The position numbers and the translations under genes were made by a program. A stretch of 4,849 nt of DNA from a virus (Duplodnaviria > Heunggongvirae > Uroviricota > Caudoviricetes): IMG/VR virus record IMGVR_UViG_2778261389_000001, positions 1 through 4,849 of that record; one strand, given 5' to 3'. The notes beneath the pieces are model-generated. The model was not told where the DNA came from. It did no database searches and saw only the letters and a list, made by a program, of their open reading frames with translations. This document shows, one piece after another, positions 3,962-4,849 of this stretch (its first letter is position 1; the number at the start of each line of letters is the position of its first letter).

Positions 3962-4405
3962 CTACACCTCCAGGGGAACAGGCCAGTTAATATCTGGAGC
4001 GCTGGAAGTGTCTATCGCTTCCAGCGCGTCGAGATAATCCAGCCAGGCGTTGTACTGTACCTTTTCGGCGTCTTTCAACCGCCCCATAGCAGCTTTTCCC
4101 GGCCATTGTTTACCGTTCATATAATCATTTGCTGCATCAATGCGGTTCTGTTTTTCTATAACAGCTTGAGCAACAATTTCCTCCTGGGTGGGAGGCGGCA
4201 TATCTACCCAGCCCGGGTGTCCATCAACCGTATCAATATACTGACCCGGCGGAACAGGGAACAGGCTGTTATACTCCGCGTCCGTTACGTCCACGCCGTC
4301 ATCCGGCCACTGTCCCGCGGCTACGAGCCTTTCTTTTTCTACCACAGGATAAAAACCCGATGTCTTCGGGCTCCACACATAAGCTGCTTCCACTTTTGTT
4401 CCCAT
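3962..4405 (-). CDS. tfa: Phage tail fiber assembly protein (Tfa family, 147 aa from the ATG)
   Basis: C-terminal region ...YNAWLDYLDALEAIDTSSAPDINWPVPLEV resembles the conserved Tfa C-terminus (...VDTSTAPDIEWP... in E. coli prophage Tfa proteins as recalled); ATG at 4403-4405 with a GGAG ribosome-binding site; the ATG lies 2 nt after the TGA stop of the upstream tail fiber gene. The track start at 4411 is a TTG two codons earlier. Confidence 0.8.
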   Translation of the reverse strand: MGTKVEAAYVWSPKTSGFYPVVEKERLVAAGQWPDDGVDVTDAEYNSLFPVPPGQYIDTVDGHPGWVDMPPPTQEEIVAQAVIEKQNRIDAANDYMNGKQWPGKAAMGRLKDAEKVQYNAWLDYLDALEAIDTSSAPDINWPVPLEV

Positions 4406-4407
4406 TC

Positions 4408-4849
4408 TCAAGACACTCCAATAGCGATCCAGTCAACGTTAAATCCACCTTGTCCGCCCTGCCACAATCCAAATCTTGTCGTGGTTTTTGATTGCGCTCC
4501 AATAGCAATATCTGCTGAAGCCTGAGCGGCAGAACCATTTTGAGATGTACCAATGTCATTCCAGGTGCAAACGACCCTGAAATCCGCAGATGAAAATGCG
4601 CGTGGCAGAGTAACATATTGATTATTAATACCCTGGGCCATACCTGCATTACCACGTTGGAATGTTGTTCCATCAGGGAAGCGTACCCAGCCAGCACCGC
4701 TTGTAAAAGCTGACATATCCGGAACCTGTCCGGGGCCAGTCCCCACGTTCTTTTTCGAAGCTGTTCCCAAACCAAGGTTTGTGAGAGCCGTAGAAATCGC
4801 CGCTGCACCATCTGATTTGATATCGGCAAATGGGTTTGCACGGCTCAGT
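4408..4849 (-). CDS. Phage tail fiber protein, C-terminal 147 codons (5' end lies beyond the window end)
   Basis: The frame is open from the window edge to the TGA at 4408-4410: LSRANPFADIKSDGAAAISTALTNLGLG...GFNVDWIAIGVS; Gly/Ser/Thr-rich fiber-like composition, located directly upstream of and coupled to tfa. The track's internal TTG start at 4770 is an artefact; the overlapping track ORF 4299-4841 is an alternate frame. Confidence 0.7.
   Translation of the reverse strand, partial: LSRANPFADIKSDGAAAISTALTNLGLGTASKKNVGTGPGQVPDMSAFTSGAGWVRFPDGTTFQRGNAGMAQGINNQYVTLPRAFSSADFRVVCTWNDIGTSQNGSAAQASADIAIGAQSKTTTRFGLWQGGQGGFNVDWIAIGVS

What the first reader, a model, noticed from the sequence alone, without database searches (positions are those of the whole stretch)
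3962..4849. Prophage tail-fiber and tail-fiber-assembly operon end abutting the SOS/flagellin modules
The tail fiber C-terminus and Tfa are translationally coupled (the stop and start are 2 nt apart) and end at a hairpin. Downstream, in place of a further tail gene or an alternative inverted fiber segment, come a roughly 340-bp spacer and the cargo genes. This is the position (the lambda b-region or P2 moron slot) where phages carry lysogenic-conversion genes, so the DinI-like, UmuD'-like and even the flagellin gene may be phage cargo. Fiber C-termini also set host range.
Basis: partly seen in the sequence, partly recalled or inferred. Interest (0 to 1): 0.4.

Follow-up and report, generated by a model that had tools for sequence, protein, structure and literature searches.

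The report
Flippable phage tail-fibre tip beside cargo
The window holds the right end of an SfV-like E. coli prophage, where the tail-fibre tip and its chaperone sit on a small DNA segment that flips in nature with no invertase gene nearby, followed by SOS genes and a flagellin-plus-repressor cassette carried as phage cargo; each part is a variant of something already known.

Summary
A tail-fibre 3' end (4408-4849, minus strand) and a Tfa chaperone gene (3962-4405) are separated by TGA-GA-ATG, and a 12-bp hairpin follows.

The "340-bp spacer" is not inert. Fibre tip, tfa and spacer together form a 1.14-kb Gin/Cin/Pin-type invertible segment. Its 26-bp crossover sites lie at 3621-3646 and 4762-4787. 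Three independent public contigs carry the segment flipped, with the exchange exactly at the central dinucleotide. The spacer holds a frameshifted relic of an opposing tfa' gene. No invertase gene lies within about 10 kb. In the flipped state the fibre ends as ...LTNLP*.

The tail module is SfV-like: a Mu-type baseplate and a 216-aa short fibre. In an IS1-free E. coli relative the order is tfa, DinI, an 80-aa gene, UmuD', flagellin, FljA-like repressor, a 91-aa gene, DinI2, attR (in yecE), yecD, with a single att core. The SOS genes and the flagellin cassette therefore lie inside the prophage boundary, in the slot where SfV carries gtrABV.

The cargo interpretation is supported. The claim that no alternative fibre segment exists is only half right. 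This is a new variant of known kinds (Mu G segment, SfV conversion slot, FRphi prophage flagellin). Interest is moderate.

The parts
4408..4849 (-). 3' two-thirds (aa 71-216) of a 216-aa SfV-orf21-like short tail-fibre gene. Residues up to about 97 are the constant part; the rest is the exchangeable receptor-binding tip (Gp53-like_C).
   Evidence: Pfam and PHROG matches. 100% tblastn match to the L003 fibre, aa 71-216. 43-45% identity to the SfII, SfI, SfV and SfIV short tail fibres.
4762..4787 (.). Fibre-side 26-bp crossover site. In gene orientation it reads CTCTCACAAACC TT GGTTTGGGAACA. The core dinucleotide is at 4774-4775, at the constant/variable boundary of the fibre.
   Evidence: Perfect AAACCNNGGTTT match. 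Homology to L001 and to 32 complete E. coli genomes breaks here. The junction is exchanged exactly at the core in L019 and L043. Compared with Mu gix.
3962..4405 (-). Tail-fibre assembly chaperone (Tfa, 147 aa). Its ATG lies 2 nt after the fibre stop codon.
   Evidence: PF02413 E=8e-26 and phrog_188 E=1.5e-47. About 54% identity to the best Tfa proteins of isolated phages.
3919..3955 (-). Hairpin with a 12-bp perfect stem and 13-nt loop, then GUAUUUUCC. Probably a weak intrinsic terminator of the fibre-tfa operon. It lies inside the tfa' relic.
   Evidence: Not reported by the simple terminator scan.
3885..3990 (+). Frameshifted relic of the 3' end of an opposing, convergent tfa' gene (VETTALSEWK / KYRVLLMRVDTAKPVWPTPPGEQAS*). 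It overlaps the tfa 3' end by 29 nt.
   Evidence: blastx gives 76% identity over 21 aa to the C-terminus of a P2-type Tfa from strain SC476, E=8e-9. The DNA matches tfa 3' ends in about 300 E. coli genomes. The intact two-cassette relative L030 has this Tfa type at the same place.
3635..3884 (.). About 250 bp of unassigned sequence inside the invertible segment. It includes an uncalled 60-aa ORF (3637-3819, minus strand) and a half-site-like CTTTCACAAAC at 3659-3669.
   Evidence: No DNA match in 5,426 E. coli genomes in distant mode. No Pfam or PHROG hit. The ORF is not in the protein collection. Inverted-repeat pair I13.
3621..3646 (.). dinI-side 26-bp crossover site, TTTTCGTAAACG TT CCTTAAGTGCCA. 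The outer half is good and the inner half is degenerate. The core dinucleotide is at 3633-3634.
   Evidence: Breakpoint of L001 homology and of the inversion. The same outer half-site plus dinI terminator is joined to 10 different inner sequences in metagenomes, C. youngae and the window family and also occurs in Nissle.
3575..3624 (+). dinI terminator hairpin (arms 3575-3586 and 3607-3618) plus a T-tract that overlaps the outer half-site.
3324..3566 (+). DinI-family gene (80 aa), convergent with tfa.
   Evidence: PF06183 E=3e-18.
3289..3308 (.). Perfect LexA box, TACTGTATATCCATCCAGTA, between the divergent dinI gene and the 80-aa/UmuD' operon.
   Evidence: 0 mismatches; 0.07 matches expected at 3 or fewer mismatches.
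3006..3248 (-). 80-aa gene of unknown function (phrog_3893). Its stop lies 2 nt before the UmuD' ATG.
2614..3003 (-). Pre-processed UmuD'-like (HumD-type) S24 protein of 129 aa. It starts at the equivalent of UmuD Gly25. Ser60 is replaced by His; Lys97 is kept.
   Evidence: phrog_811 E=2e-50. PDB 1umu E=1e-23, alignment starting at residue 1 of UmuD'. UniRef name 'HumD family'.
2278..2304 (-). Sigma-28 (FliA) class-3 type promoter of the flagellin gene, TAAAGTTT-N11-GACGATAA.
   Evidence: 2 matches in the window; 0.03 expected.
603..2228 (-). Flagellin (541 aa), the first gene of a mobile 2.3-kb flagellin-fljA cassette. A terminator lies at 585-566.
   Evidence: Flagellin_N and Flagellin_C. 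Cassette limits. Terminator.
382..512 (-). First 43-44 codons of a FljA-like repressor of phase-1 flagellin, cut by IS1.
   Evidence: tblastn to the intact 176-aa L013 protein. PF03614 on L004 and L013.
1..381 (-). End of an IS1 element (insA at 51-326). The contig stops inside it.
   Evidence: Pfam InsA domains. The IS1 inverted-repeat end is at 381.

Best explanation
The window is the right arm of an SfV-like temperate prophage (lambda-type head, Mu-type contractile tail) integrated in the 5' end of yecE in E. coli.

The tail operon ends with a 216-aa short fibre and its Tfa chaperone. The fibre's receptor-binding tip (from residue ~98), tfa and about 330 bp beyond it form a 1.14-kb invertible segment. 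Two inverted 26-bp Gin/Cin/Pin-type crossover sites bound it.

- **Orientation in the window (A):** the fibre is complete and tfa is co-expressed.
- **Flipped orientation (B):** the fibre reads ...LTNLP-stop, and the tip and tfa are disconnected from the operon.

The switch is therefore ON/OFF rather than a choice between two host ranges. The second cassette has been deleted down to a 35-codon tfa' relic. No invertase gene is adjacent, so inversion must be catalysed in trans by a Din-family invertase encoded elsewhere.

Between the segment and attR lies phage cargo:
- a LexA-box-controlled divergent SOS module (DinI; the 80-aa gene plus a pre-cleaved UmuD'/HumD-like protein);
- a self-contained sigma-28-driven flagellin plus FljA-like repressor cassette. 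By analogy with Salmonella fljBA and with the TldR-FliCP phage FRphi, this would replace the host H antigen on lysogeny.

In this particular contig IS1 has truncated the repressor.

**Shown:** gene identities, crossover sites, natural inversion, position relative to attR, and modular exchange at the sites.

**Inferred:** translational coupling, terminator function, trans catalysis, loss of adsorption in state B, flagellar conversion, and whether the phage is still viable.
For: **Gene identities:**

**Source of the window:** it is the whole 4,849-bp contig NMFG01000096.1 of E. coli assembly GCA_002538315.1.

**Tail module**
- Sister contigs L003 and L004 carry Mu gp43-48 homologues directly upstream. 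L002 adds sheath, tube and tape-measure genes.
- A 99.9%-identical tail module in strain ST536 (L023) sits in a full prophage: Q, lysis genes, terminase, portal, capsid, Mu-like tail, fibre, Sv-U/U'-S'v, invertase, DinI and attR at tRNA-Pro.
- SfV has the same gene order and a 216-aa fibre.

**Invertible segment**
- Homology to L001 (a different tail type) covers only 3628-4786. Homology to 32 complete genomes stops at 4765.
- L019, L042 and L043 carry the hybrid junctions CTCTCACAAACC-TT-CCTTAAGTGCC and GTTCCCAAACC-AA-CGTTTACGAAAAT. The half-sites are swapped exactly at the core dinucleotide. Twenty-one further fetched loci (some are the same contig fetched twice) show state A.
- The sites resemble Mu gix, TTATCCAAAACC TC GGTTTACAGGAA.
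- The tfa' relic is described. L030 is the intact two-cassette version with the same outer half-sites.

**No invertase:** none by tblastn in the window, L002, L003, L013 or L024-L033. None is annotated in the analogous 44-kb Nissle yecE prophage.

**Cargo position**
- L013 gives the order tfa, site, DinI, 80-aa, UmuD', flagellin, FljA(176 aa), 91-aa, DinI2, attR, yecE', yecD, with one att core.
- In relatives, UmuD' is followed by host genes within about 250-600 bp at yecE, yejM/tRNA-Pro, tgt-secDF and other sites.

**Regulatory sites:** LexA box and sigma-28 promoters.

**Precedent:** PMC13418256 describes a prophage flagellin with a host-fliC repressor downstream of a tail-fibre shufflon.
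Against: - The window's own strain cannot be shown to hold a complete prophage. Its contigs stop at IS1 copies, one in or next to the tape-measure gene and one in fljA. The element may be defective.
- attL and the integrase were seen only in Nissle, not in a flagellin-bearing genome.
- The flagellin-fljA cassette has sharp 2.3-kb limits and also occurs outside phages: a C. werkmanii integrase island beside a resolvase gene, an E. coli yicC-dinD island, and plasmids. It could have been inserted after the prophage became fixed.
- L011 and L012 join a different prophage to the same flagellin-to-attR block, with the join inside the UmuD' gene. The right end may therefore persist while the phages to its left are replaced.
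- The dinI-side inner half-site is degenerate, and no recombinational enhancer (normally inside the invertase gene) is present in cis. Inversion may be rare.
- Two Nissle assemblies showed no flip of the analogous segment.
Confidence: 0.75

Rival explanations
1. The fibre-tfa pair is part of a decayed prophage remnant, and the flagellin-fljA cassette is an independent genomic islet (flk/flm-like) that inserted next to it. On this view the flagellin is not phage cargo in any functional sense and is never packaged.
For: - IS1 bounds the 10.5-11.2-kb contigs on both sides and truncates fljA.
- The cassette has sharp limits and occurs in non-phage islands and plasmids.
- It is driven by a host-regulon sigma-28 promoter, not by a phage or SOS promoter.
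- L011 and L012 show the same right-hand block behind a different prophage.
Against: - Only one att core exists between tfa and yecD in L013, and it lies beyond the cassette.
- The cassette is flanked on both sides by prophage-type DinI modules, and DinI2 next to attR is also present in C. youngae, which has no flagellin there.
- In A. hermannii the same cassette (93% nucleotide identity) directly follows the fibre genes of a lambdoid prophage.
- IS1-free versions exist (L013, L041).
Confidence: 0.2
2. The Mu-type tail cluster is a tailocin (a headless killing particle) rather than a phage, and the fibre switch tunes its killing spectrum.
For: Only tail genes are visible on the contigs that share the window sequence. 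R-type tailocins derived from phage tails are known in E. coli (PMC9205054).
Against: - The 99.9%-identical tail module in L023 lies in a complete prophage with terminase, portal, capsid, lysis genes and Q.
- The SfV gene order is the same.
- The yecE att site is used by an integrase-bearing full prophage in Nissle.
Confidence: 0.07
3. The segment is fixed. The three 'flipped' contigs are assembly artefacts or products of homologous recombination, so there is no site-specific inversion.
For: - The flipped examples come from two metagenome assemblies and one automated Logan assembly of a sequencing run.
- No invertase or enhancer is present in cis.
- One half-site is degenerate.
Against: - The three samples are independent.
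- Both junctions are reciprocal and precise at a 2-bp core within a 12-bp palindrome, which is too short to mislead an assembler.
- The outer half-sites are retained and the inner half-sites swapped, as in serine-invertase exchange.
- The same sites are modular exchange points in dozens of genomes.
Confidence: 0.04

Closest known systems
Invertible tail-fibre segments of the Din family: Mu G/Gin, P1 C/Cin, e14 P/Pin
   Same: - Inverted 26-bp sites with an AAACC-NN-GGTTT core.
- One site lies inside the fibre gene at the constant/variable junction.
- The Sv-U pair has a 2-nt stop/start gap, as in Mu S/U.
- Exchange occurs at the central dinucleotide.
   Different: - Only one functional Sv-U cassette remains; the other is a 35-codon relic.
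- One orientation gives a truncated fibre.
- One inner half-site is degenerate.
- There is no adjacent invertase gene, and so none of the enhancer that lies inside gin in Mu (Kahmann 1985, cited in PMC3798978). The dinI terminator abuts the outer half-site instead.
Shigella flexneri serotype-converting phages SfV, SfII, SfI and SfIV
   Same: - The same Mu-like tail gene order, ending in a 216-aa short fibre plus tfa plus terminator.
- Lysogenic-conversion genes follow, between tfa and att/int.
- The fibre is 43-45% identical.
   Different: - SfV cargo is gtrA/B/V (O-antigen glucosylation). Here it is DinI, UmuD' and a flagellin plus repressor (H antigen).
- The SfV annotation shows no second (alternative) fibre/tfa cassette and no invertase between tfa and int; crossover sites were not searched for.
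- The att site differs (yecE).
Enterobacter phage FRphi (fliCP-tldR), PMC13418256
   Same: A temperate phage with an invertible tail-fibre 'shufflon' immediately upstream of a phage-borne flagellin gene, paired with a repressor of the host flagellin.
   Different: - FRphi is a siphovirus with three fibre tips and its own gin.
- Its repressor is an RNA-guided TnpB derivative (TldR). Here it is an FljA-type protein (PF03614).
- Here there is no gin, and an SOS module lies between the fibre and the flagellin.
Salmonella hin-fljBA and the E. coli flkAB / flmA-fljA flagellin islets
   Same: The operon is flagellin followed by an FljA-type repressor of phase-1 flagellin, with a sigma-28 promoter. 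It is a mobile import into E. coli (PMC3378880, PMC7018530).
   Different: - No hin or hix switch lies upstream in the window, although the C. werkmanii copy has a resolvase gene there.
- The location is inside a prophage right arm at yecE rather than the described islets.
- The H type is not identified. The central domain is absent from 5,426 complete E. coli genomes.
Phage P1 HumD and prophage DinI homologues
   Same: A pre-processed UmuD' homologue that needs no RecA-mediated cleavage, and a DinI-family protein, both carried by a temperate phage and preceded by a LexA box.
   Different: - The predicted nucleophile Ser60 is replaced by His.
- It is paired with an uncharacterised 80-aa upstream gene (phrog_3893).
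- Function was not tested.

Membership tests
Din-family (Gin/Cin/Pin/Hin) invertible DNA segment | Two ~26-bp crossover sites in inverted orientation with partial dyad symmetry around a 2-bp core | tested here: met
   The sites are at 4762-4787 (perfect AAACC-AA-GGTTT) and 3621-3646 (good outer half, degenerate inner half). The cores AA and TT are reverse complements. Each outer half matches Mu gix at 8 of 12 positions.
Din-family (Gin/Cin/Pin/Hin) invertible DNA segment | Inversion actually occurs, with strand exchange at the central dinucleotide | tested here: met
   L019 and L043 show both reciprocal hybrid junctions and L042 shows one. Twenty-one further fetched loci (some the same contig fetched twice) are in the window orientation.
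Din-family (Gin/Cin/Pin/Hin) invertible DNA segment | A serine invertase gene adjacent to the segment | tested here: not met
   No resolvase or invertase ORF in the window. tblastn with two invertases finds nothing in the window, L002, L003, L013 or L024-L033. The relatives L001, L023 and L010 do have one adjacent.
Din-family (Gin/Cin/Pin/Hin) invertible DNA segment | A Fis-dependent recombinational enhancer in cis | not testable with these tools
   The enhancer normally lies inside the invertase gene (PMC3798978, references), and that gene is absent here. No reliable sequence model was available to scan for a substitute.
Din-family (Gin/Cin/Pin/Hin) invertible DNA segment | Two alternative fibre-tip plus chaperone cassettes that give alternative host ranges | tested here: not met
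   Only a frameshifted relic of about 35 codons of tfa' remains. The flipped frame reads LTNLP-stop. The intact two-cassette relatives are L030, L023 and Nissle.
Caudovirales tail-fibre assembly protein (Tfa, PF02413) | Match to the family profile above the curated cut-off, and a position immediately downstream of the fibre gene | tested here: met
   91.1 bits against a cut-off of 22.1, over residues 16-143. The start codon is 2 nt after the fibre stop.
SfV-like temperate phage (lambda-type head, Mu-type tail) | Tail module in the order sheath, tube, tape measure, Mu N/P/gp45-48 homologues, short fibre, tfa | tested here: met
   Seen in L002, L003 and L023 and in the SfV annotation. The window itself contains only the last two genes.
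SfV-like temperate phage (lambda-type head, Mu-type tail) | Head, lysis, regulatory and integrase genes present in the same element | not testable with these tools
   Contigs sharing the window sequence stop at IS1 or inside tfa. These genes were seen only in the relative L023 (a different att site) and in Nissle (a different tail type).
Lysogenic-conversion (moron) cargo in the fibre-to-att slot | Located between the last tail gene and the attachment site, with its own promoter and terminator | tested here: met
   The gene order in L013 and its single att core. LexA box, sigma-28 promoter and terminators.
Lysogenic-conversion (moron) cargo in the fibre-to-att slot | Transferred with the phage and changes the host phenotype | not testable with these tools
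   This needs induction, virion sequencing and lysogenisation.
fljBA-type flagellin plus phase-1 repressor operon | A flagellin gene followed by a PF03614 (Flag1_repress) gene | tested here: met
   Flagellin_N and Flagellin_C. The repressor is 176 aa and intact in L011-L013. In the window only codons 1-43/44 remain before IS1.
fljBA-type flagellin plus phase-1 repressor operon | A Hin/hix promoter-inversion switch upstream | tested here: not met
   No hix-like site in 2229-2613 and no invertase. The promoter is fixed.
TldR-FliCP flagellar remodelling prophages (FRphi) | A TnpB-derived TldR gene and guide RNA next to the phage flagellin | tested here: not met
   The gene downstream of the flagellin is FljA-like. 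Nine selected window ORFs gave no TnpB/OrfB-type Pfam match, and Rfam found nothing.

The most novel reading that the evidence does not exclude
A family of SfV-like and lambdoid temperate phages performs flagellar (H-antigen) lysogenic conversion with a protein-based fljBA-type cassette. This would be a convergent counterpart of the RNA-guided TldR-FliCP system, moving one flagellin between Atlantibacter and Escherichia prophages (a ~80%-identical copy sits in a Citrobacter island).

The phage's own receptor-binding tip would be toggled ON/OFF by a Din invertase supplied in trans by another resident element. The infectivity of the particles it releases would then depend on cross-talk between prophages.
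Probability: 0.3. Interest if true: 0.6.

Novelty: new variant of a known kind. Interest (0 to 1): 0.42.

Why it matters
**For annotation.** What looks like a plain operon end plus a spacer is a working DNA switch. Fibre tips bounded by AAACC-NN-GGTTT sites should be treated as orientation-variable. This also explains some breaks in short-read assemblies.

**For phage biology.**
- An invertible fibre segment that flips without its own invertase gene occurs here, in E. coli Nissle 1917 and in many metagenomic relatives. This implies dependence on invertases of other resident elements.
- The invertase was not identified, and this remains an inference.

**For host biology.**
- The flagellin-plus-FljA cassette sits in the conversion slot of at least three prophage backbones.
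- A 2026 paper (PMC13418256) called the RNA-guided TldR systems the first prophage-encoded flagellin. This cassette would extend that idea to a protein-repressor version in E. coli.
- That bears on H-serotyping, TLR5 recognition and resistance to flagellotropic phages.

None of these effects was tested here.

Tried and rejected
- **Near-identity search of phage genomes** with 2560-4849 found only trivial fragments. No isolated phage is a close relative of this arm.
- **Complete E. coli genomes:** none of 5,426 holds more than 23% of the window, so context had to come from draft and metagenome contigs.
- **PDB sequence search** found nothing for Tfa. For the fibre it gave only a marginal hit of the N-terminus to Mu S (5yvq, E=0.047).
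- **Rfam** found nothing credible.
- **A second att core** between tfa and yecD, which would indicate tandem prophages, was not found at 5 or fewer mismatches.
- **An invertase relic** next to the dinI-side site was rejected. The dinI terminator T-tract overlaps the half-site, so there is no room for one.
- **The unassigned 250 bp (3635-3884)** as a remnant of an alternative fibre tip: no protein or DNA similarity was found.
- **Flipping of the analogous Nissle segment** between two complete assemblies: they are collinear.
- **H type and published locus:** Feng et al. 2008 (PMC2446816) is not held, and other papers do not place flk, fll or flm at yecE. This stays unresolved.
- **Plasmid origin** was considered because IS1 flanks the contigs. 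It was rejected because the IS1-free L013 places the block next to yecD-aspS on a 146-kb chromosomal contig.
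Full report
**1. What the window is**

The window is the complete 4,849-bp contig NMFG01000096.1 of E. coli assembly GCA_002538315.1 (L015 is 100% identical over 1-4849). Reading the plus strand, it holds:
- an IS1 end (1-381; insA 51-326);
- the first 43-44 codons of a FljA-like repressor (382-512, minus strand);
- a 541-aa flagellin (603-2228, minus);
- a UmuD'-like S24 protein (2614-3003, minus);
- an 80-aa phrog_3893 protein (3006-3248, minus);
- a DinI protein (3324-3566, plus);
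- a Tfa chaperone (3962-4405, minus);
- the last 146 codons of a tail fibre (4408-4849, minus).

No complete E. coli genome among 5,426 covers more than 23% of the window.

**2. The observation**

- The fibre matches Gp53-like_C and tail-fibre PHROGs. Tfa matches PF02413 at E=8e-26.
- The fibre stop (TGA, 4410-4408) and the Tfa ATG (4405-4403) are 2 nt apart, with a GGAG 10 nt upstream of the ATG.
- Mu S/U and S'/U' have the same 2-nt spacing.
- Six nt after the Tfa stop comes a perfect 12-bp stem with a 13-nt loop (3919-3930 and 3944-3955). It folds at -26.5 kcal/mol, z=-2.2, and is followed by GUAUUUUCC. It is a plausible but weak terminator. The simple terminator scan did not report it.
- The window has no intact second fibre or tfa gene and no invertase gene.

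**3. The 'spacer' is part of an invertible segment**

Looking up the exact Tfa protein returned contigs with three kinds of flanks.
- L001 has a different tail type. It shares only window 3628-4786 (99.8%), and a resolvase-family invertase gene follows directly.
- Thirty-two complete E. coli genomes carry the same Mu-type baseplate and fibre N-terminus at 99% identity or more. Homology stops at window 4765.

Both break points are crossover-type sequences. In gene orientation the fibre-side site reads CTCTCACAAACC TT GGTTTGGGAACA (4787-4762). On the plus strand the dinI-side site reads TTTTCGTAAACG TT CCTTAAGTGCCA (3621-3646). For comparison, Mu gix reads TTATCCAAAACC TC GGTTTACAGGAA.

The decisive result is that the segment is found flipped.
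- Contigs L019 (ENA ERZ28812166) and L043 (Logan SRR30025276) carry the segment inverted between otherwise identical flanks. L042 (ENA ERZ18533873) shows one of the two junctions.
- The junctions are CTCTCACAAACC-TT-CCTTAAGTGCC and GTTCCCAAACC-AA-CGTTTACGAAAAT. The inner half-sites are swapped exactly at the 2-bp core.
- This is the signature of serine-invertase exchange. A 12-bp palindrome is too short to cause a misassembly.
- Twenty-one further fetched loci (some are the same contig fetched twice) are in the window orientation.

**4. Content and history of the segment**

- On the plus strand, 3885-3990 encodes VETTALSEWK and, after a frameshift, KYRVLLMRVDTAKPVWPTPPGEQAS-stop. This is 76% identical to the C-terminus of a P2-type Tfa (E=8e-9). 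It overlaps the real tfa convergently by 29 nt.
- The hairpin lies inside this relic.
- L030 has the identical fibre N-terminus and the same two outer half-sites. Its segment is an intact 2,292-bp two-cassette unit (Sv1-U1 convergent with U2-S'v2), and U1 is of the relic's type.
- The window's 1.14-kb segment is therefore a deletion derivative that kept one cassette.
- About 250 bp (3635-3884) remain unassigned.
- After inversion the fibre frame reads ...A L T N L P stop. State B should give a 98-aa stub without the receptor-binding domain. This is an inference.

**5. No invertase in cis**

- tblastn with two invertases finds nothing in the window, in 10 kb either side in L002, L003 and L013, or in ten further loci that share the dinI-side outer half-site.
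- That outer half-site, fused to the dinI terminator, is joined to 10 different inner sequences in metagenomes, in Citrobacter youngae and in the window family.
- The lambdoid yecE prophage of E. coli Nissle 1917 has the same arrangement: sites at L009 20766-20791 and 22581-22606, and two cassettes. No serine recombinase is annotated anywhere in its 44 kb.
- Close relatives with a cognate invertase between the site and DinI also exist (L023, L010).
- Hin needs two 26-bp sites plus an enhancer, and in Mu the enhancer lies within gin (references in PMC3798978).
- I therefore infer that inversion here depends on a Din invertase encoded elsewhere in the cell, and is probably inefficient. This was not shown.

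**6. Which phage**

- Upstream of the fibre, sister contigs carry Mu gp43 (DNA circulation), gp44/P, gp45, gp46, gp47 and gp48 homologues. L002 adds sheath, tube, chaperone and tape-measure genes.
- The 99.9%-identical module in strain ST536 (L023) belongs to a full prophage with Q, lysis genes, terminase, gpW, portal, S49 protease, decoration and capsid proteins.
- The fibre's best matches among isolated phages are the 'short tail fibre' (orf21) of SfII, SfI, SfV and SfIV, at 43-45% identity.
- SfV has the same tail order and a 216-aa fibre. After tfa and a terminator come gtrV-gtrB-gtrA and then int-xis.

**7. Is the downstream DNA phage cargo?**

- Comparison with K-12 and Nissle defines the att core GCCCGCCACTTTAACTGCGTG in the 5' end of yecE. 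In Nissle the integrase lies at the other end of the prophage, next to the rest of yecE.
- L013 is an E. coli contig of 146 kb without IS1. It is 99.9% identical to window 382-4031.
- L013 continues through the intact 176-aa FljA-like gene, a 91-aa gene, a second DinI with its own LexA-type box, attR, yecE', yecD, aspS and ruvCAB.
- Only one att core is present.
- In relatives, the UmuD' stop is followed by host DNA within about 250-600 bp at yecE, yejM/tRNA-Pro, tgt-secDF and another site. DinI, the 80-aa gene and UmuD' are thus the usual terminal module of these prophages.
- The flagellin-fljA pair is an extra 2.3-kb cassette with sharp limits, from window 2287/2326 to the fljA stop.
- The same cassette, at 93% nucleotide identity, follows the GpJ and S74 fibre genes of a lambdoid prophage in Atlantibacter hermannii, where an integrase gene follows it.
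- At 80% identity it lies beside a resolvase gene on a Citrobacter werkmanii island.
- L011 and L012 attach a third prophage type (GpJ, tailspike, UmuDC) to the same flagellin-to-attR block. The join is inside the UmuD' gene at window 2942.

Together these results place the flagellin inside the prophage boundary and show repeated association with phages. They do not prove that it is packaged.

**8. Regulation read from the sequence**

- A perfect LexA box (3289-3308) lies between dinI and the divergent 80-aa/UmuD' operon.
- The UmuD' homologue starts at the equivalent of UmuD Gly25. It has His in place of the nucleophile Ser60 and keeps Lys97. It is therefore a pre-processed, HumD-type protein (UniRef name).
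- The flagellin has a sigma-28 promoter (2304-2278) and a terminator (585-566).
- A second sigma-28-type match points the other way (2510-2536) and runs into a strong terminator (2582-2607).

**9. Comparison with what is known**

- Invertible fibre segments (Mu, P1, e14) and conversion genes in the fibre-to-att slot (SfV) are textbook.
- A prophage flagellin paired with a repressor of host fliC, directly downstream of a tail-fibre shufflon, was characterised in Enterobacter phage FRphi. That paper calls the TldR-associated flagellins the first known prophage-encoded flagellin (PMC13418256).
- In the searchable library no paper mentions both TldR and FljA.
- The present element differs in four ways: an FljA-type protein repressor, a Mu-type tail, an SOS module, and a single-cassette switch without an invertase.

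**10. Verdict**

The cargo interpretation is supported. The statement that no alternative or inverted fibre arrangement exists is corrected. The finding is a new variant of known kinds and of moderate interest.

Open points:
- whether the phage is viable in this IS1-bearing lineage;
- which invertase acts on the segment;
- the H type of the flagellin;
- whether lysogeny really converts the flagellum.

Noticed in passing
window 1-512: IS1 is inserted in the FljA-like repressor gene after codon 43-44 of 176. The flagellin gene and its promoter stay intact. In this lineage the host fliC would no longer be repressed. Sister contigs (L003, L004, L014, L016) all stop at the same IS1 junction, and a second IS1 lies next to the tape-measure end of the tail module.
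   Followed up: partly
window 2510-2607 (+): A sigma-28-type promoter match (TAAA-N15-GCCGATAC) points away from the flagellin gene. About 45 nt later comes a strong terminator (GCCCGCCCGTGCGGGC plus a T-run). This could be a ~60-nt transcript or a relic of a divergent fliD-type promoter. The 326 bp at 2288-2613 are not shared with the A. hermannii or C. werkmanii copies of the cassette.
   Followed up: partly
window 2614-3003 (-): The UmuD'-like protein is 'born cleaved': Met followed by the residue equivalent to UmuD Gly25. It has His where UmuD has the nucleophile Ser60, and Lys97 is conserved. It is a HumD-type protein that cannot and need not self-cleave.
   Followed up: partly
window 3006-3248 (-) and 3001-3008: An 80-aa gene of unknown function (phrog_3893; 85-member 90% cluster, named members mostly Citrobacter plus E. 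coli) precedes UmuD'. It shows the same stop, 2 nt, ATG arrangement as fibre/tfa. Some NCBI records call it 'DNA polymerase V' or 'tail fiber assembly protein'.
   Followed up: no
window 2942 (inside the UmuD' gene); L011 and L012 9287: Homology with L011 and L012 breaks inside the UmuD' gene. To the left of that point those contigs carry a different prophage (GpJ, tailspike, full UmuD-UmuC). This suggests that prophages occupying yecE swap their left parts by recombination within the SOS genes while keeping the flagellin-to-attR block.
   Followed up: partly
L013 4306-5075; L033 (C. youngae): A second DinI paralogue (61% identical to the window's DinI) lies next to attR in L013, with a 91-aa gene and its own CTG-N10-CAG box. 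C. youngae has the same DinI paralogue next to attR but no flagellin (its extra ORF there is a different, 131-aa one). The variable cargo slot is thus bracketed by two DinI genes.
   Followed up: partly
L046 8989-9558 and L047 5905-6474 (C. werkmanii): An 80%-identical copy of the flagellin-fljA cassette has a 189-aa resolvase-family gene about 440 bp upstream of the flagellin. This resembles Salmonella hin-fljBA and hints that the phage cassette derives from a Hin-switched locus.
   Followed up: no
L048 12247-13378 (A. hermannii): In the A. hermannii lambdoid prophage the fljA stop and the end of a tyrosine integrase gene are 4 bp apart. In an integrated prophage the integrase would not be expected next to the fibre-side cargo. 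The arrangement is unexplained (tandem elements, or an att site overlapping the int 3' end).
   Followed up: no
window 3659-3669: CTTTCACAAAC lies 25 bp inside the dinI-side site. It repeats the outer half of the fibre-side site (CTCTCACAAACC) without a matching second half. It may be a scar of the deletion that removed the second cassette.
   Followed up: no
L009 20766-22606 (E. coli Nissle 1917 yecE prophage): Nissle carries a two-cassette fibre segment flanked by good crossover sites, directly abutting DinI. No serine invertase is annotated in the whole 44-kb prophage. Two Nissle assemblies are collinear there.
   Followed up: partly
SSU5-like phage-plasmids (SSU5, Cyrano, pJN2-26 and others): FljA-like proteins (35-41% identical) are encoded by SSU5-family phage-plasmids of Salmonella, E. 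coli and Klebsiella. No flagellin match turned up in those records. This would be a repressor of host flagellin without a replacement.
   Followed up: no
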